Shown here: positions 29,249 through 57,316 of the stretch, one piece after another
How positions within the stretch are numbered: the stretch's first letter is position 1
How the letters are laid out: every line of letters starts with the position of its first letter
IMG/VR virus record: IMGVR_UViG_3300002092_001784
Span: 1 to 64,000 of that record
Source of the DNA: a virus
Lineage: Duplodnaviria > Caudoviricetes
Length of the DNA stretch: 64,000 nt
Direction: 5' to 3' (one strand)
The notes under the pieces: model-generated
The model's database searches: none
What the model was told of the DNA's origin: nothing
The model's input: only the letters and a program-made list of their open reading frames with translations
Position numbers and translations under genes: made by a program

Positions 29249-29276
29249 TAATGTAAATATCGAAATAAATGCAATA

Positions 29277-29303
29277 GGGAGAACTAAAAATTCTCCCTTT
29301 TTT
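29277..29303 (+). terminator. Intrinsic terminator
   Basis: GGGAGAA-CTAAAAA-TTCTCCC-TTTTTT. Confidence 0.9.
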
Positions 29304-29304
29304 A

Positions 29305-29336
29305 TTTGGCGATTTGGACTATTTTTCGTATATTTG
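29305..29336 (+). promoter_or_regulatory. Bacteroidota-type promoter
   Basis: TTTG-N20-TATATTTG, immediately before ATG 29342. Confidence 0.8.
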
Positions 29337-29341: not shown

Positions 29342-30628
29342 ATGAAAATAGTAGAGACCCAAATAGAATTAGACCTTCTCAAATCCACATTAGAGGAGGA
29401 TATATCCATTATCTTCCCGATGTGGATAGATGATGAATTGCATCCAAATAACACCGTATTATCGTTCCTATTCGTAAGAGTGGGGGGTTCTGATTACATT
29501 GTAAGCTCACAACATTGTGATACTCTATCACTTACGAAATCGGACATCGAAGATATGATGAATACCGCTGGTGACAAGTTTGTATTTCAAAAAAAGAAGT
29601 TGATTCAATCGTTGGATATTCACACCAATCTATACGATATTGAAACGGCAATCTTCCTAAAGACCGGACAGACATTAGACTATACCGAACCATTTAAGGG
29701 TTTGGTGACACCATTGTATAGAATGGGGTATCGTGATAATTTAATCCAATCTATACCAATATTAAAGTTGGGCGAAGTAATACAGCAATTTATTTCTAAA
29801 CATTCGGATTTTCATATTACCGATTATAACTATAAATGGTACAACGATATATTCATACCAACCTTATCGAAGATAGAGAAATATGGGATTCGGGTCGATA
29901 GAAAAAAATTTACAGATAGATTTAGCCAATCAGCCAAACAGCTTTCCACCGATAACCTCATTTTTACCGAATACAATCCATACACCGTAACCGGCCGCCC
30001 ATCAAATCGACATGGTGGTGTGAATTTTTCGGCTCTTAACAAATCGGATGGTACGCGTGATGTGTTCGTTTCGGATGGGATATTCTTACAAATGGATTAT
30101 GATGCCTATCACCCACGTCTTATCGGTGAACTTATCGGATACACACTTCCCAAAACTTCGGTTCATCGTTGGTTGGCTGAACAATATGGGTGTAGTTACG
30201 AAGAAGGAAAGGCCGTAACATTTCAATTACTTTATGGTGGTATAGATGATGAATTTCGTCAAATACCGTATTTTAATGGAGTGGCTGATTATATAATTGA
30301 ATTGTGGAAGGCCGTATCTGCGGTGGGGTATCTTCAAACTCGTTATCGGAGAATACCGCTGAGTTGGATTGCAGACCCTAATCCACAAAAGGTATTTAAT
30401 TACCTTTTACAGGCGTTGGAAACTGAAATCAATATGGATATAGTTGGAGAGGTATTGGAATACATTAAAGATACCGATATAAAGTTATCGTTATATGTTT
30501 ATGATTCATTTCTGTTTGATTACCCAATAGATGCCGATACTGAACTTGCTAAGGGGTTGAAAGCAATAATAGAGAGTAAAGGGTTTCCGATAAAGGCCAG
30601 TTGGGGTACAGATTATGGAAAAGTTTAA
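29342..30628 (+). CDS. Minimal, divergent family A DNA polymerase
   Basis: TVTGRPS, motif A QMDYDAYHPR, motif B KAVTFQLLYGG, NYLLQALET, motif C YVYDS. Start moved to ATG 29342 because the listed start overlaps the promoter. Confidence 0.8.
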   Translation: MKIVETQIELDLLKSTLEEDISIIFPMWIDDELHPNNTVLSFLFVRVGGSDYIVSSQHCDTLSLTKSDIEDMMNTAGDKFVFQKKKLIQSLDIHTNLYDIETAIFLKTGQTLDYTEPFKGLVTPLYRMGYRDNLIQSIPILKLGEVIQQFISKHSDFHITDYNYKWYNDIFIPTLSKIEKYGIRVDRKKFTDRFSQSAKQLSTDNLIFTEYNPYTVTGRPSNRHGGVNFSALNKSDGTRDVFVSDGIFLQMDYDAYHPRLIGELIGYTLPKTSVHRWLAEQYGCSYEEGKAVTFQLLYGGIDDEFRQIPYFNGVADYIIELWKAVSAVGYLQTRYRRIPLSWIADPNPQKVFNYLLQALETEINMDIVGEVLEYIKDTDIKLSLYVYDSFLFDYPIDADTELAKGLKAIIESKGFPIKASWGTDYGKV

Positions 30629-34252: not shown

Positions 34253-36211
34253 ATGAAAGTATCTAAACTGATAAATGATATTGTTGCAGAATGGGCATAC
34301 CGAGTACACGATGGTAAGCCAAATCCAAAGAATAAATCACATATTACCGAGTTATCCGCAATCCTGTCCGAAATGGGGTTGAGTGGTATCAAACACGAAT
34401 TAATCCAAAATCTTACAGAAGCGGATGAAAAGCAATTTTCAAATCCGGTTCTTAATAAAAAAATACGGTATAAAAACGAAAAAGGTGAAGACCGTGTTGG
34501 TATTGTTGGAAATCTATTAAGACTACCAAAAACTGCAAAGGGAAGAATTGCCGCAGAAAAGGTAATTCCTAAAGATGATACACCGGAACGTAGGGCAATT
34601 AATAAGGATTTAGGTAAAGAGAAAAAAGGTAGAAACCAATCCATAACAGTACCAAAGAAAGGTGAAGACCAAGAATCACCGGAAGGTGGTCAGCAACCAC
34701 AACAACCATCACCATCCGTAATGTATACAGCAGACCCTGCAATGCAAGCTAGGATGGATACCGAAAAGAAAACATTAGCAAAGATTACCGCCAAAAAGAA
34801 AGAAGCAGAAAAGGCAGCAACTGAAAAGCCGGAAAAGGAAGATATGGATTTCAATCCGATAAACCCGCAGGATATTCACAAGGAAATGCCACATGCTGAT
34901 CCTGATACATTTAGTGGAGATTCTGATATTCCGGAACGAGTTCCACAAGATGAAGCAAGAAAAATCTCAATGAGAATTGATGATTTGGCAAAAGCAACTG
35001 CCGATGCTAAAGCAAAAGGAGAGAAAGCACCGAACTTCAATTTATGTAAGATTACCGTTCCCGGTACTAACTTATATTGTGATGGGAATTTGGGTATACC
35101 AAGAGAAGATATGCCACAATTCAAAGGTAAACCACAACCGGGTTCACCTGCATCAAAAATGCCAACCGATGAAAACGGTGAAGTAGATACTGAAGGGTTA
35201 TTCAAAAAAATGTTGAAAGATAAAGGAATTAAAGTACTTGATACTGAAATCCCATCCGATCAACTAAAAGCAACTCAATCAGAGTTAGTAGGTTCTAAAG
35301 TAGCTGGTATGGCTAAGGCATTGGATAAAGACCCAAACAATCCGGGTATTACAGCACCTATTTATGTAAGTAGAGATGGATATGTTGTAGATGGTCATCA
35401 CAGATGGGCAGCAGTAACATCAAACGCAATTACTCAAGGAAAACCGGCAATAATGAAGGTTCATGTTATTGATGCCGATGCTAAAGATATTATACCGATG
35501 GCAAACAAATTTGCCGAAAACATAGGTGTTGCCGCTAAAAAGGCAGATGCAAACCAAGAAGGACCAAAAGGTGAAGAAGAAACCAACCATGTGAAACGCG
35601 TACATAAAAAAATTGTAAAAGGTATAGAACATTTTTCAAATGAAAACAAAGAATGGTTCTTAAAAAAACAATATGCTCAAAAATCCAAAGAAAGAAGAAC
35701 AATGTCCGAAGCAGTAATGCATAAGGTTAGAGGTTCTTGGGATTCGATTAAACACCACCTAAAAGAAGAAGGTGAAGTATTTAAGCACGCAAGTGTAGGT
35801 GCAGCTAAATTCTTCAGTGGTAAAAAATTGGAAAACCACGAAAAGAAAGCATTAAAATCCGTTGCTGTTAAGGTTGTTATGGGTGCGGCAACTGCGGCAC
35901 TTACTGGTGGGATAGGACACGGTATATCTGCATTTGCACACCATGTTGTTATAAATATGATACCAGATACGATACAGGAATCAATCGCAAAAGGAATTGG
36001 TAAAGCAGCCCTATTTGCTGGAGAAGAAGATGAATCAAAATATATGTTGAAGTTCATAGAAATGATAATAGAAAAATTAAGTACTATGAAAATCACACCG
36101 GATATGATGCTAAAGTATGTAGATTCATTCAATGAAAAGCAAGGAATAAAGGAAGCAAAAGAAATACAGTTAACATCTATGTTAGCTAAGTCATCATTAA
36201 AATACAGATAA
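34253..36211 (+). CDS. Protein with ParB/Srx-like domain and shared N-terminal module
   Basis: LKATQSEL...PIYVSRDGYVVDGHHRWAA. Confidence 0.7.
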   Translation: MKVSKLINDIVAEWAYRVHDGKPNPKNKSHITELSAILSEMGLSGIKHELIQNLTEADEKQFSNPVLNKKIRYKNEKGEDRVGIVGNLLRLPKTAKGRIAAEKVIPKDDTPERRAINKDLGKEKKGRNQSITVPKKGEDQESPEGGQQPQQPSPSVMYTADPAMQARMDTEKKTLAKITAKKKEAEKAATEKPEKEDMDFNPINPQDIHKEMPHADPDTFSGDSDIPERVPQDEARKISMRIDDLAKATADAKAKGEKAPNFNLCKITVPGTNLYCDGNLGIPREDMPQFKGKPQPGSPASKMPTDENGEVDTEGLFKKMLKDKGIKVLDTEIPSDQLKATQSELVGSKVAGMAKALDKDPNNPGITAPIYVSRDGYVVDGHHRWAAVTSNAITQGKPAIMKVHVIDADAKDIIPMANKFAENIGVAAKKADANQEGPKGEEETNHVKRVHKKIVKGIEHFSNENKEWFLKKQYAQKSKERRTMSEAVMHKVRGSWDSIKHHLKEEGEVFKHASVGAAKFFSGKKLENHEKKALKSVAVKVVMGAATAALTGGIGHGISAFAHHVVINMIPDTIQESIAKGIGKAALFAGEEDESKYMLKFIEMIIEKLSTMKITPDMMLKYVDSFNEKQGIKEAKEIQLTSMLAKSSLKYR

Positions 36212-36639
36212 TGCAAAATACATGCCTACTATGTACATTTTCTAATGCTGATGGATTGGATAGTACACTTCAACAGATTAGAGATACATATCATATAGTT
36301 TATTCGTACATATATGTTTTACAAAACAAAGTAAATGTGGACGACCTGTTTATTACATATAATATAGATACTACCTATCAGGTAGATACTCCATTGTATA
36401 ATACTATTTTGATTCACCGCAAAAAGGAATCTAATACCATTTATACTATAAATGCACTTAATCAATTAGTGAGAGAGGAAAATAGTGGAATTATGGACTC
36501 TTCATTCGTATTGGATTGGCAGAAGTATAAAAATTCTATAATTCTGACAACAGCAGGTGGTTTGAAGAAAATTCAAACTAAAGTATACGATATTATATCG
36601 TTTTCACAGTCTGATATTGATAATTATTATAATCGTTAA
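36211..36639 (+). CDS. Hypothetical protein
   Basis: Coupled ORF (TAATG) with a HRKKESNTIYTINALN motif. Confidence 0.6.
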   Translation: MQNTCLLCTFSNADGLDSTLQQIRDTYHIVYSYIYVLQNKVNVDDLFITYNIDTTYQVDTPLYNTILIHRKKESNTIYTINALNQLVREENSGIMDSSFVLDWQKYKNSIILTTAGGLKKIQTKVYDIISFSQSDIDNYYNR

Positions 36640-38095: not shown

Positions 38096-38926
38096 ATGGC
38101 TATTAACTTAGATGCAATCAGAGGTAGACTGAACAAACTACAAACGACCACAAGGACATCGGTGGAAACTTGGAAACCCGCACCGGGAAAATATCAAATC
38201 CGATTAGTTCCGTATAAGTTCAACAAAGAAAATCCATTCATTGAACTTTACTTTCACTACAACATCAACAACAAAACGTATCTGTCACCAATTTCATTTG
38301 GTAGACCAGACCCTATTGTTGAGTTCGCTGAAAAACTGAAAAGAATGGGTGACAAAGAAGATTGGAAGGCCGCAAAGAAAATGGAGCCGAAACTTCGGAC
38401 ATTCGTACCTGTATTGGTAAGGGGTGAAGAAGGTGAAGGAGTTCGTTTTTGGGGATTTGGAAAAACCGTATACCAAGACCTGCTTGGGTACATTGCTGAT
38501 CCCGATTATGGTGATATTACTGATCCAGAAACAGGTAGGGATATTATCGTTGAAATTGTATCAGCTGAAGATTCTGGTACTTCGTATCAGCAAACCAACA
38601 TTAGGGTTAAACCTAAAGAAACACCATTATCGGAAAAAGCAGAAGATGCCAAACGGTTTCTTGATTCACAAAAAGAGATTACTGAAATGTATTCTGAATT
38701 AACATATTCAGAATTAAAAGGTATTCTTGAAGGTTGGTTAAATCCATCGTCTGAATCTGATGATACTGATGTGCCATCACCATCGGCTGAAGTGTTATCT
38801 TCAAAACCGGCTGAAACCGCTAAAGCAACTCACGTTGCAAATGAAACCGCAAATTCAACACCTACATCTAATAACAAAAAATTAGATGATGTTGGTTCTG
38901 CGTTTGATGAACTGTTTAACAAATAA
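38096..38926 (+). CDS. Single-stranded DNA-binding protein (T4 gp32-like)
   Basis: WKP...IRLVP, FWGFGKTVY, DYGDITDP..GRD motifs and an acidic tail ending AFDELF. Confidence 0.85.
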   Translation: MAINLDAIRGRLNKLQTTTRTSVETWKPAPGKYQIRLVPYKFNKENPFIELYFHYNINNKTYLSPISFGRPDPIVEFAEKLKRMGDKEDWKAAKKMEPKLRTFVPVLVRGEEGEGVRFWGFGKTVYQDLLGYIADPDYGDITDPETGRDIIVEIVSAEDSGTSYQQTNIRVKPKETPLSEKAEDAKRFLDSQKEITEMYSELTYSELKGILEGWLNPSSESDDTDVPSPSAEVLSSKPAETAKATHVANETANSTPTSNNKKLDDVGSAFDELFNK

Positions 38927-38935
38927 AAACCTTAA

Positions 38936-40039
38936 ATGGCAAAAAAAGAACTTGATTTAGCAGAAGTTCTAGCCGATTCCTTAAACAAACAGTCTAAAGA
39001 TCAAACAATCGCATACTTTTTAGATGCCGGAGATTCACCCGCTAATATAGCAGGGTGGATTTCCACCGGCGCATCTACTTTGGATATTGCGATTTCTAAT
39101 AGACCGTATGGTGGGTTTCCGGTTGGAAGAATTTCTGAGATTACTGGGTTGGAGCAGAGTGGAAAATCGTTACTTTCTGCTCATGCTTTGGCTGAAACTC
39201 AAAAATTAGGTGGGGTAGCTGTAATGATAGATACCGAAGCGGCAGTAAGTAGAGAATTTCTAACTGCCATTGGTGTAGATGTGAGTAAACTATTGTATGT
39301 ATCTACCGATTCTGTTGAACAGATTTTTGAATCAATCGAAACTATTATTGAAAAAGTTAGATTGGCTTCAAAAGATAGGTTTGTTACTATTGTGGTGGAT
39401 TCCGTTGCAGCAGCATCAACTAAGAAAGAGTTGGAAGCTGATTATGGTAAGGATGGATATGCAACTGATAAATCGATTATCATTTCCAAAGCAATGCGGA
39501 AGATTACAAATATGATAGCGAAACAGAAGATTGCAGTAATATTCACAAATCAGTTACGACAGAAAATGAACGCTATGCCGTTTTCAGACCCTTGGACTAC
39601 TTCGGGTGGTAAAGCATTGGCATTTCACGCATCAGTACGGTTACGGTTGAAAACTACTGGAAACATTAAGGTGGGTGACAGAATTGTAGGTATTAAAGTA
39701 CGATGTCAGGTTGTTAAAAACAGAATGGGACCACCGTTACGGTCTGCTGATTTTGATATATTCTTTGATAGGGGTATTGATAACTACGGTGCGTGGATAG
39801 CAATAATGAAAGAATCTGATTTACTGAAGCAGGGTGGTGCGTGGTATACTTATGTTGATACCGATACGGGAGAGGAAATTAAATTCCAAGCGAAGGATTT
39901 TGTAAGTATACTAAATAGTAGACCCGAAATCAAAGAACAGATGTACAATAGAATGTGTGAATGTCAAATAGTTCTTTATAAAAAGAACGGTGAGGCTGAA
40001 CTCATTGAAGATACGGATGTTGTTATTGACGAAGATTAA
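38936..40039 (+). CDS. uvsX: RecA/UvsX-like recombinase
   Basis: GLEQSGKS Walker A, IDTE, VVDSVA and GGKAL.F.AS.R motifs. Confidence 0.9.
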   Translation: MAKKELDLAEVLADSLNKQSKDQTIAYFLDAGDSPANIAGWISTGASTLDIAISNRPYGGFPVGRISEITGLEQSGKSLLSAHALAETQKLGGVAVMIDTEAAVSREFLTAIGVDVSKLLYVSTDSVEQIFESIETIIEKVRLASKDRFVTIVVDSVAAASTKKELEADYGKDGYATDKSIIISKAMRKITNMIAKQKIAVIFTNQLRQKMNAMPFSDPWTTSGGKALAFHASVRLRLKTTGNIKVGDRIVGIKVRCQVVKNRMGPPLRSADFDIFFDRGIDNYGAWIAIMKESDLLKQGGAWYTYVDTDTGEEIKFQAKDFVSILNSRPEIKEQMYNRMCECQIVLYKKNGEAELIEDTDVVIDED

Positions 40040-40054
40040 AACAAAAAATGTTAC

Positions 40055-41098
40055 ATGAAAGAACTTTATAAAAAGTTATTAACTGAAGTTACTACGGAGC
40101 ATGATACAAATGTATCACGCAACCGTAACGGTAAGGTTCTTGTTATTGACGGCACGAACACCTTCATCCGTTGTTGGACAACCAATCCTAGTATGAACGA
40201 AGATGGTGACCATACGGGTGGGGTTGTTGGTTCGTTAAACTCCATTGGAGCAATAATTAGACAATTTAACCCAACACGAGTAATTTTAGTATTCGATGGT
40301 AAGGGCGGTTCTGATTCAAGAAAAAAGATATTTGAAGGATATAAAGCAGGTAGAACTAAAAACAGATTTAGGGTAAACCGTCAGTATCCGGAAATGATGA
40401 ATGAAGAAGAAGAACACATTTCTATGAGACGGCAATTCGTTTGGTTGGCGGACATATTAGATAGTTTACCAATCACAACGATGGTATATGATGGGATAGA
40501 AGCAGATGATGTAATTAGTTATATTCCTATGGAATTGTTATCTGAAACAGATGAATGTATTATCAATTCAACTGATAAGGACTTTTTACAGCATATCAAT
40601 GACAACATAACCATATATTCCCCAACAAAAAAGAAATTATATACCAAAGATGTATTCTTTGAAGAATTTGGTATGTATCCTCAAAACTTTCTATTGTTTA
40701 GAACATTGGATAGTGATGCATCGGATAACATACCGGGAGTTAAGGGGGTTGGATTGAAAACATTTCTGAAACGATTTCCAGAATTTTCTGAAGATAGACT
40801 TATCACTTTTGATGAGTTTTTTAGTCTATGCGAACAACGTAAGGGTACATATAAAATTTATGATGATATTTTGGAACATAAGAATGATGTACTGCGTAAC
40901 AAAAAAATTATGCAGTTATCTGATTCCGTAATATCGGTTGATCAAAAACTTAAAATTTTGGATAGATTTAATGAACCAAATAAACGGTTTGATAAAATGA
41001 ATTTTCTTAGAGCAGGTTCTAAATATAAAATTCTTCAAAACTGGCGTGATATCAACGACTGGCTAAATTCCACATTTAATAACATTATAGTACAATAA
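40055..41098 (+). CDS. 5'-3' exonuclease/RNase H (FEN family)
   Basis: VIDG.N, VFDG, YKAGR, EADD, STDKDF and D.SDNIPGVKGVG motifs. Confidence 0.9.
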   Translation: MKELYKKLLTEVTTEHDTNVSRNRNGKVLVIDGTNTFIRCWTTNPSMNEDGDHTGGVVGSLNSIGAIIRQFNPTRVILVFDGKGGSDSRKKIFEGYKAGRTKNRFRVNRQYPEMMNEEEEHISMRRQFVWLADILDSLPITTMVYDGIEADDVISYIPMELLSETDECIINSTDKDFLQHINDNITIYSPTKKKLYTKDVFFEEFGMYPQNFLLFRTLDSDASDNIPGVKGVGLKTFLKRFPEFSEDRLITFDEFFSLCEQRKGTYKIYDDILEHKNDVLRNKKIMQLSDSVISVDQKLKILDRFNEPNKRFDKMNFLRAGSKYKILQNWRDINDWLNSTFNNIIVQ

Positions 41099-41099
41099 G

Positions 41100-42491
41100 A
41101 TGGCTCAATTGGATACATTAGAGAAATATGGTCATAGTTTTCAAGCAAAGGTATTAAGTGCTTTGCTCACCGATGCCAAATTGCTGGACACACTCGAAGA
41201 TATTGTTCATAAAAAGTTCTTTGAATCTGAAGTAAATAAATGGATAGTTGAGAGGATTAAAGAATATTACGAACAGTACAGAAAACCACCAACACTTGAT
41301 GTATTTAAGGTTGAGCTTGAGAAAGAACAAAATCCAACTCTTAAAAAAACAGTAGTAGAACAACTGAGAGTAATATATACTCAAATAGGGCAAGATGACT
41401 TACAATATGTAAAGGATGAATTTTCAGCATTTTGTATAAATCAAAACTTAAAGGAGGCTATAATACAATCCGTTGATTTACTAAAAGCTGGTAATTACGA
41501 TAAGATAAAGGACTTGGTTGACCGTGCTATGAAGGTGGGTAATGAACTACATTTAGGGCATGATTATATTAAGGATTATCTACTTCGAATTAATGAAGCC
41601 GATAGAAATACGGTAAGTACCGGTTGGGATGCTATTGATGAACTGATGGATGGTGGATTGGGGCCGGGAGAATTGGCAGTAATCGTAGCACCGTCTGGAG
41701 TTGGGAAAACTTGGGCATTGGTTGCATTAGGTGCGGCAGCGGTTAGAGCAGGTAAGAGTGTTGTTCATTATAGTTTGGAATTATCTGAGTATTATGTGGC
41801 TCAACGATATGATACGGTTTTTACACATATTCCATCTGCCGAATTGAAAGATAAAACAGATGAGGTGTATAGTAAAATACAAAAGTTATCGGGTAATCTG
41901 TTAATAGAGTATCTTGCCCCAAAAAGTGTATCATCGAAAAAGATACAGATGCATATTGAGCAGATGATAGCAGCCGGAAACAGACCGGATTTAATCATCA
42001 TAGATTACGCAGATTTACTTCTTTCACATTCCAATAAATCAGAAAGTACCTACGGAGAGCAAGGTGGTGTTTATATTGATTTGAGAGGTATGGGTGGTGA
42101 ATTGGGTATACCAATTTGGACGGCATCTCAAACCAATCGTTCTGGTATCGATAGTGAAATTATTGAAGCTGATAAGATTGCGGACAGTTATGCTAAAGTA
42201 ATGAACGCTGACTTTATTATGAGTATTAGTAGAAAGGCAAATGATAAATTGAATAATACTGCTCGTATTCATATAATGAAAAACAGATTCGGTCCTGATG
42301 GTCTTACATATCCATCAAAAATGGATACTAATAAAGGAATATTGGAAGTGTACGACTCCGCTTCAGCTGATGGTATGCTTGCACAAAAAGAAAGCAAAAA
42401 TGGGGTTGAAATGGAACGACAACTATTACATAAAAAATATGTAGAGGTTATGCCTTCCAAAACAGCACCACGTGTTGATGGCATGGGATAA
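41100..42491 (+). CDS. Replicative DnaB/gp41-like helicase
   Basis: APSGVGKT, YSLEL, IIDYADL, TASQ.NR and KNRFG motifs. Confidence 0.92.
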   Translation: MAQLDTLEKYGHSFQAKVLSALLTDAKLLDTLEDIVHKKFFESEVNKWIVERIKEYYEQYRKPPTLDVFKVELEKEQNPTLKKTVVEQLRVIYTQIGQDDLQYVKDEFSAFCINQNLKEAIIQSVDLLKAGNYDKIKDLVDRAMKVGNELHLGHDYIKDYLLRINEADRNTVSTGWDAIDELMDGGLGPGELAVIVAPSGVGKTWALVALGAAAVRAGKSVVHYSLELSEYYVAQRYDTVFTHIPSAELKDKTDEVYSKIQKLSGNLLIEYLAPKSVSSKKIQMHIEQMIAAGNRPDLIIIDYADLLLSHSNKSESTYGEQGGVYIDLRGMGGELGIPIWTASQTNRSGIDSEIIEADKIADSYAKVMNADFIMSISRKANDKLNNTARIHIMKNRFGPDGLTYPSKMDTNKGILEVYDSASADGMLAQKESKNGVEMERQLLHKKYVEVMPSKTAPRVDGMG

Positions 42492-49768: not shown

Positions 49769-50884
49769 ATGAATTTTTGGGAAGGTCAAATTAGTAAAGA
49801 TGCTAGAAAAGTGTTGGTGATACCGAATATCACCAACTCTAGCAATATAGAGAAAGATTCATTCGTAGATGTTATTTACAACCACATAAAGGGGTTAGAG
49901 CAATACGGTGAATACTTTTGGAATATCATATTGCCAGAACCGGTTAAGAAGTTGAATTTACCCAATGTAAAGCAACATGTCTTACCATTTTCTGGTGATA
50001 TGATAAAAATGCGTACATATCCACCTGATATGAATCGTATTCTTGAGCAAGTAGACTATGATGTAATATATTCACATTTACCCGATTGGCCGCAGGTTGG
50101 TAGATACCGAAACAATTTTGATACAAAAATAATTGGGTATTGTCATTGGTGGGAAATGAAAACTTGCAATGCGGAAGATCGAAAGAATAAATGGCGATGG
50201 TTACCAGTTGAATTGTTAGGTATATCACAAATGGAAACTTGTTATTTGAATACTCAAGATCAAAAGAATAGAGTTTTAGCCGAAGCAAGTGATACTTTCA
50301 ATAGTGAGTTTGTTGCTAAATTAGACTCAATATTAACAGTATGGAATTTGGGATTACCAAAAGATAAAATAGTTGATAACGCATCAAATGATAAATCTAA
50401 CATAATCGTATTCAATCATAGAGCAGCTGCATATAAGGGATATCCTGATTTTATTAAGTTGATGGTAGAGTATCGTGAAAAAAGACAAGATTTTAGCGTA
50501 TGGGTGCCTCAATTAAATGGTACTCCATCTGAAAATTGGATTGATAATACGAAGATGCCAAAGCATGAATATTATAAACGATTACAGCAATGTAAGGTTG
50601 GTGTGCAGATGAGGCAAACTAATTACGGTTGGAGTGTATCGGGTACAGATTGCATGATGAACGGTACACCTATGATTTTTCAAGATTCCCTTTGTTATAG
50701 AGAAATAGACCCAAATGGTATGTTTTTCAAATACAAAAAAGACTTTTTCGAAATGTTGGACAAAATGTTAGATGATGAATCTTTCAGAAAAGAACATGAA
50801 GTTAGGAGTATAAATAGAGCAATCGAACTTTCAGCCAATGAAGGTATAATGCTTGCTGAATTACACAAAAAACTAAATAGCTAA
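49769..50884 (+). CDS. GT-B fold glycosyltransferase (GT4-like)
   Basis: IVFNHR...YKG, YYKRLQQC.VG and GWS.S.TD.MM.GTP (variant of the EX7E region); starts MNFW. Confidence 0.7.
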   Translation: MNFWEGQISKDARKVLVIPNITNSSNIEKDSFVDVIYNHIKGLEQYGEYFWNIILPEPVKKLNLPNVKQHVLPFSGDMIKMRTYPPDMNRILEQVDYDVIYSHLPDWPQVGRYRNNFDTKIIGYCHWWEMKTCNAEDRKNKWRWLPVELLGISQMETCYLNTQDQKNRVLAEASDTFNSEFVAKLDSILTVWNLGLPKDKIVDNASNDKSNIIVFNHRAAAYKGYPDFIKLMVEYREKRQDFSVWVPQLNGTPSENWIDNTKMPKHEYYKRLQQCKVGVQMRQTNYGWSVSGTDCMMNGTPMIFQDSLCYREIDPNGMFFKYKKDFFEMLDKMLDDESFRKEHEVRSINRAIELSANEGIMLAELHKKLNS

Positions 50885-53406
50885 TGGCATATCAAAACAT
50901 TTATTTTCAGAGAAATCAAAATCTAATGCACATTTGGGATGATCATCGGGGATATAGGACATTTCCGTATTCTCGTTATGCATATCAAAAAGACCCAAAT
51001 GGACAATTTACGTCTTTATATGGCGATAAACTTACTAAAATTTTCAAATTTTCAAAGGATGATCCAAATTTATTCGAATCCGATGTCCCAGAAACTACAC
51101 GGGTTTTGGTAGATACATATACGGATAGTGATTTACCATCGGAAGGACATATCATTTTAACATATGATATTGAGGTTGAAATGGATTCCGGTCTTCCTGA
51201 TGTTCAGAAGGCTGAAAATGAAATAACTGCTATTGGTTTGCATGATTCTGCTACAAACCATTATTGGGTATTGATTATGGATAAAGCCGGTAAGATGGAT
51301 GGTGTTGAAACTGGAAACCGAACCGTTATACCGTTTAGATACGAAGATGATTTATTATTAAAATACATTGATTTGTATGAGGAAATAAATCCAACAATCG
51401 TTACTGGATGGAATATTGATAATTTTGATACTCCGTTTTTATACAATAGAATAAAAAGATTATTGGGTGAGAAGCAAGCCAATCGTTTATCGCCGATTGG
51501 TGAGGTGTTCTGGTCACCATATCGTAAACGATATTTTATTGCCGGTGTATCTTATTTGGATTACATTGAATTGTATAAGAACTTTACATATTCGGAGTTA
51601 GCAAATTACCGCTTGGACAGTATTGCTAATATCGAATTGGGTAGAGGAAAACTTGAGTATACTGGAAATTTGGATAACCTGTTTAAGACAGACCCTAATA
51701 AGTTTATAGAATACAACATTACTGACGTTGAGTTGGTGGTTAGTATGGATGCTAAATTACAATTCATTGATTTGTGTAGAGGTATATGCCATGCAGGCCA
51801 CGTTCCGTATGAAGATTTTGTATATTCATCGAAATACCTTGAAGGCGCTATTCTTTGTTATTTGAAACGAAGGGGTATTGTTGCTCCTAACAAACCTGCG
51901 GATAGGCAGGAAAGGATGCAGGCTCTTAAAGATAATGAGCAAGAAAAGTTCATTGGTGCATATGTGAAGGCACCGATAGTTGGTAAGTATGAATGGGTGT
52001 ATGACTTAGACTTAACATCGCTATATCCATCTATCATTATGGGTGTAAATATATCACCGGAAACCAAAGTTGCTAAGATTTCGAATTGGGACTCTTCAAA
52101 GTATATGAAGGGCGAGATTGATACATTTAATATTGATGGACAATCCATTACCAACGATAACCTTAAACTGATGTTGCAAGAGGAAAAATATACTATTTCA
52201 TCAAACGGTGTATTATATCGGACAGATAAAGTAGGTTGTATACCTGATATTTTGGATTTATGGTTCAATCAGCGTGTTGAATTTCGTAAGTTAGAAAAGA
52301 AATACGGTGAAGAAGGTGATAAGGTACAACATGCATTTTATAAAAGGAGACAGCATGTTCAGAAGATTTTGCTTAATTCACTTTATGGTGTATTAGGTTT
52401 GCCAGCGTTTCGTTTCTACGATGTTGATAATGCAGAAGCAGTTACAACTTCTGGGCAGATGGTTATTAAATCAACTGCGGATATGGCTAACATCAAATAT
52501 AACAAAGAATTGGGAACGGGTGATGCAGATTATAATATTTACATCGATACGGATTCCATTTTCTTTAGTGCAGTGCCGATTTTGGATTTCCGATATGCGG
52601 ATTGGAGAAGTGGTACTCAAGAAGATATAGCAAAATTGGTTGATACTGTTGCAGGTGAAACGCAAGATTATCTGAATAATTTTTATAACATTTTAGCGGA
52701 GAGGGTATTTAATATTCCAAAAGGTAAACATCGTTTTCAGATTAAGAAAGAGTTTGTATCCAGAAGTGCAATTTGGTTAGCTAAGAAACGATATGCTATG
52801 GCAATTGTAGCTGAAAATGGATTACCAATAAATAGGTTGGATGTAAAGGGATTAGACGTTGTACGTTCATCATATCCTGCACAGTTCCGTAAATTTATGA
52901 GTGAGGTATTGATTGATATTCTGAATGGTAAAACAGAAAATGAGTTGAGTGATAAGATATATTACTTTAAGTTGGACCTTAGAAATATGGATGCCGTTTC
53001 AATAGCTAAAAATTCGGCAGTAAAAGAATTATCGAAGTATATTCCGAAAGGAAAGCAAACGGCAATGTTTCGATTTAATTCCGGTACTCCTGCGCATGTG
53101 AAGGCGGCAATTGCATTTAATCAATTAATTAAACATTTTAATTGTCCTACAAGTATTGAACCAATGCGTGATGGTGATAAGATAAAATGGATGTATCTGA
53201 AACAAAATCCGTATGGGTTGGATGCCGTTGGGTTTAAGGGATACGAAGACCCGACAGAAATAATTGAGTTCATAAAAACATATGCTGATTATGATGAAGT
53301 ATTTGAACGTGAACTTCTAGGTAAGTTGGAAGATTTCTATACCGCATTGAAGTGGGGTTCGCCGTTAGGTAGCACGAAAGTCTCAGAACAATTTTTTCAA
53401 TTTTAA
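50884..53406 (+). CDS. Family B DNA polymerase (gp43-like)
   Basis: Exonuclease YDIEV/GWN...FD; DLTSLYPS, KILLNSLYG, YIDTDS motifs. Confidence 0.95.
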   Translation: MAYQNIYFQRNQNLMHIWDDHRGYRTFPYSRYAYQKDPNGQFTSLYGDKLTKIFKFSKDDPNLFESDVPETTRVLVDTYTDSDLPSEGHIILTYDIEVEMDSGLPDVQKAENEITAIGLHDSATNHYWVLIMDKAGKMDGVETGNRTVIPFRYEDDLLLKYIDLYEEINPTIVTGWNIDNFDTPFLYNRIKRLLGEKQANRLSPIGEVFWSPYRKRYFIAGVSYLDYIELYKNFTYSELANYRLDSIANIELGRGKLEYTGNLDNLFKTDPNKFIEYNITDVELVVSMDAKLQFIDLCRGICHAGHVPYEDFVYSSKYLEGAILCYLKRRGIVAPNKPADRQERMQALKDNEQEKFIGAYVKAPIVGKYEWVYDLDLTSLYPSIIMGVNISPETKVAKISNWDSSKYMKGEIDTFNIDGQSITNDNLKLMLQEEKYTISSNGVLYRTDKVGCIPDILDLWFNQRVEFRKLEKKYGEEGDKVQHAFYKRRQHVQKILLNSLYGVLGLPAFRFYDVDNAEAVTTSGQMVIKSTADMANIKYNKELGTGDADYNIYIDTDSIFFSAVPILDFRYADWRSGTQEDIAKLVDTVAGETQDYLNNFYNILAERVFNIPKGKHRFQIKKEFVSRSAIWLAKKRYAMAIVAENGLPINRLDVKGLDVVRSSYPAQFRKFMSEVLIDILNGKTENELSDKIYYFKLDLRNMDAVSIAKNSAVKELSKYIPKGKQTAMFRFNSGTPAHVKAAIAFNQLIKHFNCPTSIEPMRDGDKIKWMYLKQNPYGLDAVGFKGYEDPTEIIEFIKTYADYDEVFERELLGKLEDFYTALKWGSPLGSTKVSEQFFQF

Positions 53407-53409
53407 TAT

Positions 53410-54372
53410 ATGAAAGTTACAGTTGTAATTAGAACATATAATAGGACTGATTTTTTGAAGCAGTGTCTTGCTTCAGTGAAGTTGCAAACACATACCGATT
53501 GGGAAGTTTTAATATTTGATGATGGTGGTAGTGATGCTAATTTTGAAATATACAATAAATTTAAGGCAGAAAATTCCGATAAACGAATAGTATATCTAAC
53601 AACACACACTGCGTATGAACTATTTTGTAATTCATGGTTACTTGCTCCCAATTTGGCAACGGGTGATATTATGGTTAGGTTGGATGATGATGATCTATTA
53701 GCAGAAGATTGTTTGAGTTACATATCCGATTTATATGAACGAAATGAAGATTTAGATTTCACATACGGAACTGCGGTTACATTTGATGGTGATAATCTTA
53801 TGACTATGATGGATACAATGAATCCACAAGAAGCACCTAAAACTCAAACTGCATGGGCTGGTTATACTATACCAAATAATCATCCATGGAGAGACCCGTT
53901 TTGTTGGTATGAGAATTATTATGAAGAACCTCAACCATTTACATCTATAATCCATTGTAGTAAATCGAATATAATGTGCATTTATCATTTATATTCAATG
54001 AGAACTGAATCGGTCAGACGTGTGAAGGATAAGATTACAGTAACTTCTAAATATGTAGATGATTTGGAATTTTTAGGAAGTTTGGATTATTTGGGATTAA
54101 CACATACATCAATACATAAAATACTTTCTTATGTTAGAGAGCATGATACAGGTAGGGTATCTGATAGGGGTAAGTTAACCGATGGTACTACATTGTGGGA
54201 TGATATACTGAGAATTAGAGATAAAGTAGATTATTTAAGACCTGCTGGATTTCAATCAAGAGTAATACCAATCAACGCAACCAATAATACCAATAACGGT
54301 ATTACCTATGAGTTACAAAATACGTTCTCACACTATTATAGTAGAATAAAATTCAAATCTTTAGTATATTAA
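53410..54372 (+). CDS. GT-A fold glycosyltransferase (GT2-like)
   Basis: VVIRTYNR, FDDGG.D and RLDDDD motifs. Confidence 0.85.
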   Translation: MKVTVVIRTYNRTDFLKQCLASVKLQTHTDWEVLIFDDGGSDANFEIYNKFKAENSDKRIVYLTTHTAYELFCNSWLLAPNLATGDIMVRLDDDDLLAEDCLSYISDLYERNEDLDFTYGTAVTFDGDNLMTMMDTMNPQEAPKTQTAWAGYTIPNNHPWRDPFCWYENYYEEPQPFTSIIHCSKSNIMCIYHLYSMRTESVRRVKDKITVTSKYVDDLEFLGSLDYLGLTHTSIHKILSYVREHDTGRVSDRGKLTDGTTLWDDILRIRDKVDYLRPAGFQSRVIPINATNNTNNGITYELQNTFSHYYSRIKFKSLVY

Positions 54373-54404
54373 TTTGGAAATACGAATAATTTTTCGTATA
54401 TTTG
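54373..54404 (+). promoter_or_regulatory. Bacteroidota-type promoter
   Basis: TTTG-N20-TATATTTG. Confidence 0.8.
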
Positions 54405-54439
54405 TACAGAATATAAAATTTAACAATAAACTTTGAAAC

Positions 54440-55135
54440 ATGAAAAGAGCAAAACTCGATGGTTTTATTAATCGTTACAATTTGGGTGGCGAAATTGAGT
54501 CTGTTATGATTAAATCAACAGATGAAAAATTATCAGTCCGTATGATTTCGGATGATAAAACATTATTGGGAACAGTATCTATGTTGGATACTGAATTTCC
54601 TACGGGAGAATTTGGAATTTATACAACTTCCCAATTGAAGGGATTACTGAATGTATTGGATGATGGCATCACCGTAGAGGAAGTTACAGGTGCATTAAAA
54701 TTTTCGGATAAGAAAACCAAAATGCAATATATGTTGGCAGCGCCATCGGTTATTCCATCCGTACCAGAACTTAAAGCATTACCTGCATTTGAAGCAGAAA
54801 TTGCATTGAATGATGAATTTGTAAATAAGTTCATTAAATCTACCGGAGCATTATCTGATTCTCTTACATTTACATTCACCTACAAAAAAGGTGTTGGTGA
54901 GATTATTTTAGGATATTCATCTATCAATTCAAATCGTATTGCTATTGATACTGATACGAAATCGGAAGTTGATATTGAACCAATTGCGTTTTCATCAAAA
55001 TATCTGAAAGCTATTCTTAATGCAAATCGGGGTGCTAAAACATCTTCATTGAAGATTTCATCTAAGGGGTTGGCAGCTGTTTCATTTGAGGCAGATGAAT
55101 ATACTACCCAGTATTATCTTGTTGAAGTAAAATAA
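54440..55135 (+). CDS. Sliding clamp (gp45/PCNA-like)
   Basis: 231 aa two-domain alpha/beta pattern, FGIY...L..LL and F...YL..IL motifs; lies near PolB and the clamp loader. Confidence 0.7.
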   Translation: MKRAKLDGFINRYNLGGEIESVMIKSTDEKLSVRMISDDKTLLGTVSMLDTEFPTGEFGIYTTSQLKGLLNVLDDGITVEEVTGALKFSDKKTKMQYMLAAPSVIPSVPELKALPAFEAEIALNDEFVNKFIKSTGALSDSLTFTFTYKKGVGEIILGYSSINSNRIAIDTDTKSEVDIEPIAFSSKYLKAILNANRGAKTSSLKISSKGLAAVSFEADEYTTQYYLVEVK

Positions 55136-55150
55136 TTAAAATCATAAAGT

Positions 55151-56365
55151 ATGAATTTTTGGGATACTGAACCACAAACACCTGTTTTTGATTTTGATAT
55201 TGAAAAACAGAAATTGATTGAAAATATGGATTATCTGTTTGCAATGTCCGTTCAAGAACAGACACTTTATAAAAAATGGGTGGAGCTCCAAGAACCTACC
55301 ATGCAGAAAGATAAATCCCAAATATCCACATATTATGATATGCAATGGAAACCAACCGATATCAATAATAAGGAACTAACGATTGCCGAAATTCAATCGT
55401 TAGAACCTTATGTTGAGATTGTGGATGATAATGCTGCCGAATCTACCAAATGGGCTCAAATCCGTAGAATGATTCATACAATGGATTTTACGGCAAACCC
55501 CGGTAGAAATGTGAAAATCAATGTAAAGGATAGAAAGACGGGTAAGTTATTGGGTCAAATTTCTCTTGCATCGGATGTTACATCATTGGGGGTGCGTGAT
55601 GAATATATTGGGTGGACTAAGGATGACAAATTCAAAAAAGGTAAACTGAATCACACTACCATTGCATCTACTATTGTATGTACACAGCCATTGGGATATA
55701 ACTTTTTGGGTGGTAAACTGATAGCTATGATGTGTACTGTACCTGAAGTTAGAGAACATTGGAAGAAAAAATACGATAATACTTTAATCGCAGTTGGAAC
55801 AACTTCGTTATATGGTATCAATTCTCAGTACACAGGCCTTCCACTTTTCAAAACTTTGGGTGAAAGTAAAGGTAAGATCAGTATAAAACCTGATGATAAA
55901 TTTTATGATCCATGGCACCAATGGTTAAAAGAAAATCGTACAGAGTGGTATAAGAAAAACATAACAGAAGAGCGTGAACGAAATGGCGCTAATATGGGTT
56001 ATGAACGAAATGGACCTGTTAGTGGCATCAAACAAAAGATTCTTACACAAATTTTCAAAGAGTGTGGTATTAAAGCAAATGAATATCATCACGGATTTAA
56101 GCGTGGAATTTATTTGGCTATGATGTACGAAAATGGTAATGATTTTCTTTGTGATAAAATTGGTGAAGACCAACTAAAACTTAGAGATAAGTTTGTGAAG
56201 GGAACAGATTATATTATGGAGTGGTGGAAACGACACGCTATTAGTAGATATACCAAGCTACATACAGAGGGACGTTTGAAACCGGATCATCTTTTTTACA
56301 TCAATGGTATAGGACAAGATTGGGATAGCTTTAAGGCCGAATACTTAGGAGAAGTTGGACGTTAA
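55151..56365 (+). CDS. DUF4338/DruA-like protein
   Basis: PGRN...V.D..TGK.LG.I.L.SD...L..RD.YIGW, P.GYNFLGGKL.A and TTSLYG..SQY motifs; starts MNFW. Confidence 0.7.
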   Translation: MNFWDTEPQTPVFDFDIEKQKLIENMDYLFAMSVQEQTLYKKWVELQEPTMQKDKSQISTYYDMQWKPTDINNKELTIAEIQSLEPYVEIVDDNAAESTKWAQIRRMIHTMDFTANPGRNVKINVKDRKTGKLLGQISLASDVTSLGVRDEYIGWTKDDKFKKGKLNHTTIASTIVCTQPLGYNFLGGKLIAMMCTVPEVREHWKKKYDNTLIAVGTTSLYGINSQYTGLPLFKTLGESKGKISIKPDDKFYDPWHQWLKENRTEWYKKNITEERERNGANMGYERNGPVSGIKQKILTQIFKECGIKANEYHHGFKRGIYLAMMYENGNDFLCDKIGEDQLKLRDKFVKGTDYIMEWWKRHAISRYTKLHTEGRLKPDHLFYINGIGQDWDSFKAEYLGEVGR

Positions 56366-56376
56366 AAACAATAATT

Positions 56377-56556
56377 ATGAAACAGTATGTCAGACTATGG
56401 GGTGATGCTAGTGAGCAATATTTATGGTCATATTTAGAAGATTTGGTTAACAAAGGTTATACGATTATTTCAGTAACTCCAACTGAATGGTATACAAAAC
56501 CATTTAGACCAGACCACTATCAGGTAGTTGAAGCAGTCATTATAGTAAGTAAGTAA
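56377..56556 (+). CDS. Hypothetical 59-aa protein (absent from the ORF track)
   Basis: MKQYVRLWG...VIIVSK* fills the gap exactly. Confidence 0.5.
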   Translation: MKQYVRLWGDASEQYLWSYLEDLVNKGYTIISVTPTEWYTKPFRPDHYQVVEAVIIVSK

Positions 56557-56561
56557 AACGT

Positions 56562-56873
56562 ATGAAAATGGAAGAAACGATAAAAAAATATACAGATTTA
56601 GGAGTACTGCCTGAGAAAGTAGTATATACGCCGCTTTCCTCATTATGTATATGGTCTATAAGTAGAAAGTGTTTAGTTGGGAGTGATGCGAAGTATCCTG
56701 CCGAAGAGTTGGTTAAGGACGGTAAAAACTATAAAATTACTTATGAAAATAACCGTATGGTATCATTACATATTCATACTACTATAAATGCCGATGAGAT
56801 CAATAAATCGGAAGGTATTATAGTTACAGAGTGTGATACATTTTTTCGTTATGAATTTATACCTACAAAATAA
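56562..56873 (+). CDS. Hypothetical protein
   Basis: 103-aa ORF within the operon. Confidence 0.55.
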   Translation: MKMEETIKKYTDLGVLPEKVVYTPLSSLCIWSISRKCLVGSDAKYPAEELVKDGKNYKITYENNRMVSLHIHTTINADEINKSEGIIVTECDTFFRYEFIPTK

Positions 56874-56890
56874 AAATTAAGAAATTAAAT

Positions 56891-57316
56891 ATGAAAGTAA
56901 AAATAAAAAAACTATCAAATACAGCAGTAATACCAACATATTCAAAACCCGGAGATGCTGGATTGGATTTAACCGCAACTGGAATTATAAGTAATACGAC
57001 TTTCGAAATTACATATGGAACTGGTATTGCATTACAAATCCCAGACGGATATGTTGGATTGATATTTCCTCGTTCATCTATACGAAAATACGAATTACAA
57101 CTGAGTAATTCAGTTGGTGTAATAGATAGTGGATACAGGGGAGAGATACAGTTTACATTTAATAAAACAAACAAACTTGATTCGTTCTCGTATCGTGTAG
57201 GTGATAGAATCGGGCAGATTATAATATTACCATATCCACAAATTGAATTTGAAGAAACGGATGAACTATCTGATACGGAAAGAGGTGATGGTGGGTTTGG
57301 GCATACTGGAAAATAA
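56891..57316 (+). CDS. dut: Trimeric dUTPase
   Basis: AGLDL, RSS, GVIDSGYRGEI and RG.GGFGHTG motifs. Confidence 0.95.
   Translation: MKVKIKKLSNTAVIPTYSKPGDAGLDLTATGIISNTTFEITYGTGIALQIPDGYVGLIFPRSSIRKYELQLSNSVGVIDSGYRGEIQFTFNKTNKLDSFSYRVGDRIGQIIILPYPQIEFEETDELSDTERGDGGFGHTGK

What the first reader, a model, noticed from the sequence alone, without database searches (positions are those of the whole stretch)
29342..30628. A stripped-down family A polymerase alongside a complete family B replisome
Seen: about 428 aa. Catalytic Asp residues are kept in motif A (DYDAYHPR) and motif C (YDS). The conserved motif A Glu of DYSQIELR is replaced by His, only about 25 aa separate GIRVD from TGRPS where the thumb normally lies, and no ExoI DxE is evident. 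It has its own host-type promoter. PolB, clamp, loader, helicase and SSB are encoded separately. Inference: a non-replicative role such as gap filling, handling modified bases, priming or untemplated synthesis. No primase is visible in this window.
Basis: partly seen in the sequence, partly recalled or inferred. Interest (0 to 1): 0.7.

Follow-up and report, generated by a model that had tools for sequence, protein, structure and literature searches.

The report
Thumbless second phage polymerase (divPolA1)
This gene encodes a shrunken family A DNA polymerase with a dead proofreading domain and almost no thumb; large aquatic phages carry it beside their main replication polymerase, the family was named divPolA1 from computer analysis in 2024, and its job has not been tested.

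Summary
Its AlphaFold model (pLDDT 96) superposes on the Bst/Klenow Pol I large fragment (Z 27.8, about 400 of 428 residues). The thumb is cut from 117 residues to 30, and both ExoI carboxylates are replaced (Pro26, Trp28).

In 139 cluster representatives the two metal-binding Asp residues, the motif B Lys and Tyr, and the DNA minor-groove contacts are invariant or nearly so. Three pocket residues are consistently changed: Glu710 to His (138/139), Arg754 to mostly Tyr, and Glu883 to Ser, Ala or Gly.

It is not new in kind. It is 30% identical (E 1e-50) to gp1 of Flavobacterium phage immuto, an exemplar of divPolA1 (Yutin et al. 2024, PMC11348598), and shares its gene order. This scan has reached the same verdict on other genomes.

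Added here:
- The family has about 1000 clusters at 50% identity.
- The gene has a Bacteroidota-type promoter that ends 5 nt before the ATG.
- A 135-150-aa unknown protein is almost always encoded downstream.
- A DnaG primase lies elsewhere in the 266-kb genome, which weakens the priming idea.

The most likely role is distributive short-patch DNA synthesis beside the PolB replisome. That role is inferred, not shown.

The parts
29276..29298 (+). Terminator-like GC hairpin followed by a T-run, closing the upstream gene (28751-29248)
   Evidence: 8-pair stem with 4 GC pairs, then a TTTTTATTT tail
29305..29336 (+). Bacteroidota-type promoter: -33 TTTG at 29305-29308 and -7 box TATATTTG at 29329-29336. 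The ATG follows 5 nt later, so the mRNA is probably leaderless or nearly so.
   Evidence: 52 TTTG-N17-21-TAnnTTTG sites on the + strand against 4.65 in shuffles, most of one 32-nt form.: the same box lies 4-7 nt before the ATG in at least 21 related loci. The naming of the consensus rests on established knowledge of Bacteroidota promoters.
29342..30628 (+). divPolA1-type family A polymerase gene, 428 aa (P0001)
29342..29836 (+). Vestigial 3'-5' exonuclease-fold domain (about residues 1-165). ExoI Asp and Glu are replaced by Pro26 and Trp28.
   Evidence: the whole model, 1-428, aligns to the exo+pol large fragments; P26=D355, W28=E357, H58=H387
29900..29989 (+). Thumb stub: 30 residues (187-216, two short helices) where E. 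coli Pol I has 117
30095..30118 (+). Motif A, DYDAYHPR: catalytic Asp252, and His257 at the steric-gate position
30197..30238 (+). Motif B (O-helix): Tyr286 in place of Arg754; Lys290, Phe294 and Tyr298 kept
30494..30511 (+). Motif C, YVYDSF: Tyr387 for His881, catalytic Asp388, Ser389 for Glu883
36211..36639 (+). Conserved 142-aa protein of unknown function ('cluster 1'), inherited together with the polymerase gene
38096..42491 (+). Conserved downstream module: gp32-like SSB (38096-38926), UvsX (38936-40039), Pol I-type 5' nuclease (40055-41098), DnaB helicase (41100-42491)
50884..58792 (+). The regular replicase set: PolB (50884-53406), sliding clamp (54440-55135), clamp loader (57851-58792)

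Best explanation
The gene encodes a member of the divPolA1 family. It is a Klenow-type large fragment reduced to 428 residues, with an exonuclease-fold domain that has lost its ExoI metal ligands and a thumb cut to a 30-residue stub. It keeps every residue needed for two-metal, template-directed nucleotide addition.

It is transcribed from a host-type (Bacteroidota -33/-7) promoter of the same kind that precedes the phage's replication genes. It opens a conserved block: polymerase, variable genes, a 135-150-aa unknown protein, SSB, UvsX, 5' nuclease, DnaB.

The phage also has a full PolB, clamp and loader set and a DnaG primase. The enzyme is therefore most likely an accessory, distributive, error-tolerant DNA polymerase for short stretches. 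Candidate jobs are filling gaps left after primer removal by the neighbouring 5' nuclease, or extending recombination intermediates made by UvsX.

The consistent changes around the incoming nucleotide (Glu710 to His, Arg754 to Tyr, Glu883 to Ser/Ala/Gly, plus an invariant Glu360) suggest changed nucleotide selectivity, of unknown kind.

What is shown: fold, family membership, residue conservation, synteny, promoter motif. What is inferred: catalytic activity, low processivity, the biological role. My confidence in family membership is about 0.9. My confidence in the short-patch role is about 0.4.
For: Fold:
- AF2 model pLDDT 96, pTM 0.92.
- Foldseek top hits are Pol I, Klenow and Pol theta, TM by query 0.71-0.76.
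- VIA-align against the Bst large fragment gives Z 27.8, with 399-407 of 428 residues aligned at rmsd 3.5-4.

Sequence:
- The family profile hits Klenow at E 9e-13 and skips the thumb.
- hhalign gives Klenow E 2e-11, T7 DNAP 0.024, T7 RNAP 0.38.

Membership:
- 30% identity, E 1e-50, to immuto gp1, which PMC11348598 names as a divPolA1 exemplar.
- The gene order downstream of the polymerase is the same as in immuto.

Conservation in 139 representatives:
- D252, D388, K290, R219, Q357, E360 and Y387 are 139/139.
- H257 and Y298 are 138/139.

Other replication genes:
- PolB, clamp and loader are in the window.
- PolB is present in 4 of 4 larger related contigs.
- A DnaG primase is present in this genome and in immuto.
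- The conserved module contains a Pol I-type 5' nuclease, PF02739 plus PF01367.

Promoter: it belongs to a set of about 40 near-identical promoters confined to the non-structural region.
Against: - No activity of any divPolA1 has been measured. Only the 2024 paper and its preprint mention the name.
- Pfam PF00476 does not detect the protein.
- Loss of Glu883 and Arg754 would cripple Klenow, so the enzyme may work differently from a standard DNA polymerase.
- The authors of divPolA1 read the conserved replication context as a sign that it may itself take part in replication.
- A 5' nuclease is common in phages without any PolA, so its presence nearby is weak support for a 'split Pol I'.
Confidence: 0.5

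Rival explanations
1. It is a polymerase with relaxed or switched sugar selectivity that makes RNA or mixed primers, that is, a primase-like or RNA-polymerase-like enzyme derived from PolA.
For: - The steric-gate Glu is replaced by an invariant His.
- Motif C reads Y-D-S-F, like the H-D-S-F read from the T7 RNA polymerase sequence here, and unlike the H-D-E of Klenow and T7 DNAP.
- There is a precedent for a minimal PolA acting as a primase: CCPol-MP (PMC7581432).
Against: - His is as bulky as Glu and could still block a 2'-OH.
- Phe294 and Tyr298 are of the Pol I type.
- hhalign against T7 RNAP gives only E 0.38 over 26 columns, and PF00940 finds nothing in the genome.
- The genome and immuto both encode a DnaG primase.
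- The early region carries about 40 host-type promoters, so no phage RNA polymerase is called for there.
Confidence: 0.12
2. It is a core replication enzyme of this phage lineage and works with an unidentified processivity partner that stands in for the thumb. The 'regular' polymerase would then have another task.
For: - In 80 IMG/VR loci the gene holds a fixed place at the head of the SSB-UvsX-nuclease-DnaB block.
- The published relatives carry different regular polymerases (A, B or C) while divPolA1 stays constant, and the authors raise this possibility.
- A 135-150-aa protein is encoded downstream in 52 of 53 loci.
Against: - In this window PolB sits among genes that include the clamp and the clamp loader, the normal T4-type arrangement.
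- A replicase for a 266-kb genome with no proofreading and no thumb would be unusual.
- These loci all come from related phages with shared gene order, so the co-occurrence is not independent evidence.
Confidence: 0.12
3. It is a specialised lesion-bypass or modified-template polymerase that copies the phage's own modified DNA, or damaged DNA, where PolB stalls.
For: - There is no proofreading, the thumb is reduced and the nucleotide pocket is altered.
- The window encodes DNA methyltransferase-like, Mom-like and glycosyltransferase-like proteins next to PolB.
Against: - The related loci fetched here reach only 8 kb either side of the gene, so whether relatives share these modification genes was not examined.
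- Minor-groove checking residues are fully conserved, as in accurate Pol I enzymes.
Confidence: 0.15
4. It is a catalytically dead polymerase fold kept for a structural or DNA-binding role.
For: Glu883 and Arg754, both important in Klenow, are missing.
Against: Both metal-binding Asp residues, the motif B Lys and Tyr, and the primer-template contacts are invariant or nearly so across sequences down to about 30% identity. That pattern is what a working active site is expected to show.
Confidence: 0.03

Closest known systems
divPolA1 (Yutin, Tolstoy, Mutz, Wolf, Krupovic, Koonin 2024, Virol J 21:200; PMC11348598); exemplar gp1 of Flavobacterium phage vB_FspM_immuto
   Same: Homologous over the full length (30% identity, E 1e-50). 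Truncated thumb, inactivated exonuclease fold and conserved palm residues. Present in addition to a regular polymerase. The same downstream order: small protein, SSB, recombinase, 5' nuclease, DnaB.
   Different: It is only 30% identical to the exemplar. The genome is larger (266 kb against 155-190 kb), and 5.6 kb of extra genes separate the polymerase from the small conserved protein. The paper lists 14 phages. The searches here find about 1000 clusters at 50% identity and at least 577 IMG/VR stretches. The section of the paper read here does not mention the His at the steric gate, the losses of Arg754 and Glu883, or the invariant Glu360.
Bacterial Pol I large fragment with a vestigial exonuclease domain (Bst and Taq large fragments)
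   Same: Same two-domain fold (Z 26-28) with an exonuclease-fold domain; here the ExoI ligands are replaced, and the Bst and Taq large fragments are known, by established knowledge not tested here, to lack 3'-5' activity. Same TGR motif and same layout of motifs A, B and C.
   Different: About 150-170 residues shorter, mostly the thumb (87 residues). Glu710, Arg754, His881 and Glu883 are all replaced. There is no fused 5' nuclease; one is encoded separately at 40055-41098.
CCPol-MP primase-polymerase of SCCmec and related PolA-SSB pairs (PMC7581432; bioRxiv 10.1101/2022.12.02.518924)
   Same: A minimised family A polymerase on a mobile genome, encoded near a helicase and small proteins. It shows that a stripped PolA can gain priming activity through a partner.
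   Different: CCPol has no exonuclease domains at all and has an adjacent OB-fold partner. Here the exonuclease fold is kept. The conserved small neighbour has a ferredoxin-like N-terminal half, not a recognised OB fold. A DnaG primase is present.
divPolA2 of barbaviruses (same 2024 paper)
   Same: A second, divergent PolA beside a regular PolB, without exonuclease activity.
   Different: divPolA2 has a novel N-terminal globular domain, sits in variable gene neighbourhoods and matches RNA polymerase structures. The protein here matches DNA polymerase I large fragments over its full length.

Membership tests
divPolA1 | Sequence homology to a published exemplar (immuto gp1) | tested here: met
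   BLASTP 30% identity over 418 residues, E 1e-50; tblastn E 3e-42
divPolA1 | Thumb subdomain truncated | tested here: met
   30 residues against 117 in E. coli Pol I between the flanking motifs; HMMER skips Klenow chain residues 234-312
divPolA1 | 3'-5' exonuclease fold present but catalytic acidic residues replaced | tested here: met
   The whole model aligns to exo+pol large fragments. ExoI D355 and E357 correspond to P26 and W28 (a weak alignment with E 0.14). These columns show no acidic residue among the five commonest in 139 sequences. ExoII and ExoIII were mapped by motif likeness only.
divPolA1 | Palm catalytic residues conserved | tested here: met
   D252 and D388 are 139/139
divPolA1 | Encoded in addition to a regular DNA polymerase | tested here: met
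   PolB at 50884-53406; PolB in 4 of 4 larger related contigs
divPolA1 | Conserved replication genes downstream | tested here: met
   The order SSB, UvsX, 5' nuclease, DnaB is shared with immuto and with IMG/VR loci
Family A DNA polymerase (Pfam PF00476) | Match to the Pfam model above its cut-off | tested here: not met
   No PF00476 hit at E up to 1 for the protein or the genome
Family A DNA polymerase (fold and motifs) | Klenow-type fold with the TGR motif and motifs A, B and C in order | tested here: met
   Z 27.8; profile against Klenow E 9e-13; phrog_17 E 3e-11
CCPol-MP type PolA primase | Polymerase domain only, no exonuclease fold | tested here: not met
   Residues 1 to about 165 align to the exonuclease domain of Pol I large fragments
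CCPol-MP type PolA primase | Adjacent small OB-fold ssDNA-binding partner | tested here: inconclusive
   The conserved small neighbour (36211-36639) shows only generic ferredoxin-like matches, Z about 5.5. The two ORFs directly downstream have no family hits.
T7-like single-subunit RNA polymerase | Overall similarity to the family (PF00940 or T7 RNAP) | tested here: not met
   PF00940 finds nothing in the genome, but it rang in no control genome either, so that search is weak. hhalign against T7 RNAP gives E 0.38 over 26 columns, against E 2e-11 for Klenow.
T7-like single-subunit RNA polymerase | Small residue (Gly542) five positions after the motif A Asp, leaving room for the 2'-OH | tested here: not met
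   The position holds His in 138/139 sequences. T7 RNAP has Gly there in DGSCSG.

The most novel reading that the evidence does not exclude
The consistent rewiring of the nucleotide pocket (His for the steric-gate Glu, Tyr for Arg754, Ser for Glu883, a new invariant Glu360) together with loss of the thumb may mark a change of chemistry, not mere decay. Under this reading divPolA1 would be a widespread phage PolA that uses ribonucleotides or starts chains de novo, possibly with the co-inherited 135-150-aa protein. That would make it a third lineage of PolA-derived primase or RNA polymerase, after T7-type RNAPs and CCPol-MP.
Probability: 0.12. Interest if true: 0.8.

Novelty: new member of a known kind. 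Interest (0 to 1): 0.42.

Why it matters
divPolA1 is abundant. The searches here find about 1000 clusters at 50% identity, in aquatic phages that probably infect Bacteroidota, yet no member has been assayed.

It is a natural experiment in how far a Pol I-type enzyme can be reduced: no thumb, no proofreading, and three 'essential' pocket residues swapped, while it stays under strong selection.

Knowing its substrate preference and partners would show why phages with a complete replisome keep a second polymerase. It could also yield a compact polymerase with unusual nucleotide tolerance. A cultured host-phage pair exists for genetics (Flavobacterium phage immuto).

Tried and rejected
- Pfam and phmmer against PDB with the single sequence found nothing useful. 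The family profile was needed.
- Megablast of the region against GenBank phages found no match.
- Complex prediction of the polymerase with the conserved 142-aa neighbour gave 'no answer' (score 0.00). This is not evidence either way.
- The 142-aa neighbour remains unexplained. The ESM Atlas has no usable hit. Foldseek PDB has nothing at E up to 0.001. VIA-align wide gives only generic ferredoxin/ACT-like matches at Z about 5.5 for residues 1-68. Pfam and PHROGs find nothing.
- A global hhalign to Klenow misaligned the N-terminal domain because of the thumb deletion, so the N-terminal part was realigned alone (weak).
- Searching four related contigs for the primase found nothing. They are 63-81% complete fragments, so this is uninformative.
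- The look-up of sequencing runs listed only freshwater DNA metagenomes and no RNA holder. Expression and the proposed leaderless start were therefore not tested, and read laying was not used.
- Genome contigs returned only 13 loci, all in records titled MAG (six named as Bacteroidota lineages, others Pelagibacter, Nitrosopelagicus and so on). These may be phage contigs binned into MAGs, which was not checked, so they give at most a host hint.
- A full phylogeny against the 19 published PolA subfamilies was not built. The only proxy is profile E-values: Klenow 2e-11, T7 DNAP 0.024, T7 RNAP 0.38.
- Model coordinates are not exposed to scripts, so the spatial positions of His257, Glu360 and Ser389 relative to the metal site could not be examined.

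Full report
**What is there.**
The window is the first 64 kb of a 266,153-bp IMG/VR phage record that CheckV rates complete. It comes from freshwater metagenomes.

The window encodes:
- tail fibres, a sheath and baseplate proteins up to about 28.6 kb;
- then a non-structural region with a gp32-like SSB, UvsX, a Pol I-type 5' nuclease, DnaB, ribonucleotide reductase, DNA-modification genes, PolB, a sliding clamp and a clamp loader.

The finding is the ORF at 29342-30628(+), 428 aa, P0001. The database version starts at a TTG at 29306. That start lies inside the promoter, and the N-termini of homologues do not support it.

**Is it a family A polymerase?**
Pfam does not see it, and the single sequence finds nothing in the PDB. 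PHROGs places residues 184-426 in phrog_17, 'DNA polymerase', at E 3e-11.

A profile of 56 diverse homologues hits the Klenow fragment at E 9e-13 in two pieces and skips Klenow chain residues 234-312.

An AlphaFold2 model built on that alignment is very confident (pLDDT 96, pTM 0.92):
- Foldseek returns only family A polymerases, TM by query up to 0.76.
- VIA-align superposes 399-407 of the 428 residues on the Bst Pol I large fragment, Z 27.8, rmsd 3.5-4 Å.

So the N-terminal 165 or so residues have the 3'-5' exonuclease fold, and the rest is palm plus fingers.

By profile-sequence comparison the family is much nearer to bacterial Pol I (E 2e-11) than to T7 DNA polymerase (0.024) or T7 RNA polymerase (0.38).

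**Residue map.**
The map comes from the HMMER and hhalign alignments to E. coli Pol I, with Pol I numbering checked on the MG1655 sequence.

| P0001 | E. coli Pol I |
|---|---|
| R219 | R668 |
| R239 | R690 |
| D252 | D705 |
| H257 | E710 |
| R259 | R712 |
| H275 | H734 |
| Y286 | R754 |
| K290 | K758 |
| F294 | F762 |
| Y298 | Y766 |
| N353 | N845 |
| Q357 | Q849 |
| Y387 | H881 |
| D388 | D882 |
| S389 | E883 |

Conservation in 139 full-length representatives of 50%-identity clusters, about 30-84% identical to P0001:
- D252, D388, K290, R219, Q357, Y387 and a family-specific E360 are 139/139.
- H257 and Y298 are 138/139, and F294 is 136/139.
- The Arg754 position is Tyr in 109 and is basic in only 2.
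- The Glu883 position is Ser in 114, Ala in 22 and Gly in 3. It is never acidic.

The thumb is 30 residues (187-216, two short helices) against 117 in Pol I.

In the exonuclease-fold domain, a weak (E 0.14) but topologically consistent alignment puts Pro26 at Asp355 and Trp28 at Glu357. These are the two residues mutated in the classical exo-minus Klenow, which is established knowledge. His58 matches Pol I His387. Neither ExoI column shows an acidic residue among its five commonest in the family.

The only corrections are 30 residues rather than 25, and the start codon.

**It is a known family.**
A literature search led to Yutin et al. 2024 (PMC11348598). That paper describes 'divPolA1' in 14 phages related to Flavobacterium phage vB_FspM_immuto. 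It is a second PolA beside a regular A, B or C family polymerase. It has a truncated thumb, an inactivated exonuclease domain, conserved palm residues and conserved replication genes downstream.

P0001 is 30% identical to immuto gp1 over 418 residues (E 1e-50). The gene orders also match:
- Immuto: divPolA1, 151-aa protein, 171-aa protein, SSB, RecA-like, 5'-3' exonuclease, DnaB, RNR.
- This window has the same order, with 5.6 kb of extra genes between the polymerase and the small conserved protein.

No paper other than that study and its preprint mentions the name, so the activity is untested. Earlier follow-ups in this scan reached the same identification on other genomes.

*Size of the family.*
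- 1866 proteins among 90%-identity clusters match at E 0.001 or better.
- 984 representatives of 50%-identity clusters match at E 0.001 or better, 483 of them at 1e-30 or better, nearly all 410-470 aa.
- At least 577 IMG/VR stretches encode a relative.
- There is one AlphaFold DB cluster.
- Among prokaryote genomes, the 13 matches are all in records titled MAG. Six are named as Bacteroidota lineages.

*Synteny in 80 IMG/VR loci.* The order is five baseplate-region genes, then the polymerase, then variable large proteins, a 135-150-aa protein, SSB, UvsX, the 5' nuclease and DnaB.
- The small protein lies downstream in 52 of 53 loci that extend at least 5 kb. It is directly adjacent (20 nt) in the closest case.
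- It is 45% identical between this phage and immuto, more conserved than the polymerase itself.
- Its model is confident (pLDDT 92.6) but matches no solved structure beyond a generic ferredoxin-like half.
- These phages are all related, so the co-occurrence is a lead and not proof of partnership.

*Regulation.*
- A terminator-like hairpin (29276-29298) is followed by TTTG-N-TATATTTG at 29305-29336, with the ATG 5 nt later.
- The pattern TTTG-N17-21-TAnnTTTG occurs 52 times on the coding strand against 4.65 in shuffles. About 40 copies share one 32-nt form.
- 49 of the 52 lie between 28.7 and 183 kb. The 28 kb of structural genes hold only one degenerate copy.
- The pattern matches the Bacteroidota -33/-7 promoter consensus, which is established knowledge. 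It supports a Bacteroidota host and early expression by the host RNA polymerase, alongside the SSB, clamp and nuclease genes.
- The 4-7-nt spacing between the box and the ATG recurs in at least 21 related loci. This suggests a leaderless mRNA, which was not tested.

*Primase.* A 310-aa DnaG-type primase lies at genome position 211207-212139 (phrog_47, E 1e-40). Immuto has one too.

*Other polymerases.* The genome has no other PolA and no T7-type RNA polymerase hit. PolB is present in all four larger related contigs examined.

**How it most likely works.**
The metal ligands, the Lys and Tyr of the O-helix, and the Arg, Asn and Gln that read the minor groove of the primer-template are all conserved. 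This points to a working, template-directed polymerase, and it argues against a terminal transferase or a dead protein.

Without ExoI ligands it cannot proofread by the usual two-metal mechanism. Without a thumb it should hold duplex DNA poorly and act distributively unless a partner helps. That follows from established knowledge of Klenow thumb deletions and is not tested here.

The phage has a PolB holoenzyme and a primase. The most economical role is therefore short-patch DNA synthesis: gap filling after primer removal by the module's Pol I-type 5' nuclease, or extension of UvsX-made recombination intermediates.

The coordinated replacement of Glu710, Arg754, His881 and Glu883, together with the new invariant Glu360, is the strangest feature. 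Motif C (Y-D-S-F) resembles the H-D-S-F of T7 RNA polymerase. However, the steric-gate position holds a bulky His rather than T7's Gly, and overall similarity to RNA polymerases is absent. Altered sugar or base selectivity is possible, but the sequence cannot settle it.

**Verdict.**
It belongs to a family published in 2024 and already met by this scan, so it is a new and rather distant member of a known kind. The open question is biochemical: what does a thumbless, exo-dead, rewired PolA do beside a full replisome?

Noticed in passing
window 36211-36639 (+): A 142-aa protein with a very conserved core (invariant N51, H69, R70, K72, N75, Y78, N81, L83, N84, W103). It lies downstream of the polymerase in 52 of 53 related loci and is adjacent to it in immuto. 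The AF2 model is confident, but there is no Pfam, PHROG or PDB match beyond a generic ferredoxin-like N-terminal half.
   Followed up: partly
genome 28693-183172 (+), e.g. window 28693-28724, 37250-37281, 47592-47623, 48760-48791, 54373-54404, 60572-60603: About 40 near-identical 32-nt Bacteroidota-type promoters (TTTGGAAA...TTTTCGTATATTTG) are confined almost entirely to the non-structural part of the genome. The structural module at 1-28 kb holds only one degenerate copy.
   Followed up: partly
window 30756-31235, 31232-31615, 31636-32370 (+): Three consecutive small ORFs just after the polymerase share a roughly 20-aa N-terminal motif (MKL.E.K.I.REE.R.VLRE). They are the only three in the genome with it. 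They have no family hits, and the motif is not found in the related loci.
   Followed up: partly
window 32394-34160 and 34253-36211 (+): Two paralogous large proteins of unknown function (phrog_2859; weak SAP-domain hint). Relatives of very variable length (about 150-2100 aa) occupy the same slot between the polymerase and the 142-aa protein in most related loci.
   Followed up: no
window 55151-56365 (+): A 404-aa protein matching Pfam DruA (the Druantia defence protein family, E 1.3e-21), encoded between the sliding clamp and the clamp loader of a phage.
   Followed up: no
window 61983-62558 (+): A 2H phosphoesterase-like protein with weak matches to the 2'-5' RNA ligase family and to anti-CBASS Acb1. 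It may be an anti-defence nuclease for cyclic nucleotides.
   Followed up: no
window 46190-50884, 53410-54372 and 62565-63998 (+): A cluster of DNA methyltransferase-like, Mom-like modification and glycosyltransferase-like genes around PolB. This suggests the phage DNA is modified.
   Followed up: no
window 58883-59737 (+): A homing endonuclease gene (phrog_314) inserted directly after the clamp loader gene.
   Followed up: no
genome 215536-225969 (+), outside the window: A single 3477-aa ORF about 3.4 kb downstream of the DnaG primase gene. It was not analysed.
   Followed up: no
window 29306-29341: The public protein record for this gene (P0002, 440 aa) starts at a TTG inside the promoter. 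The ATG at 29342 fits the homologues and the promoter, so the database start is probably 12 codons too early.
   Followed up: yes
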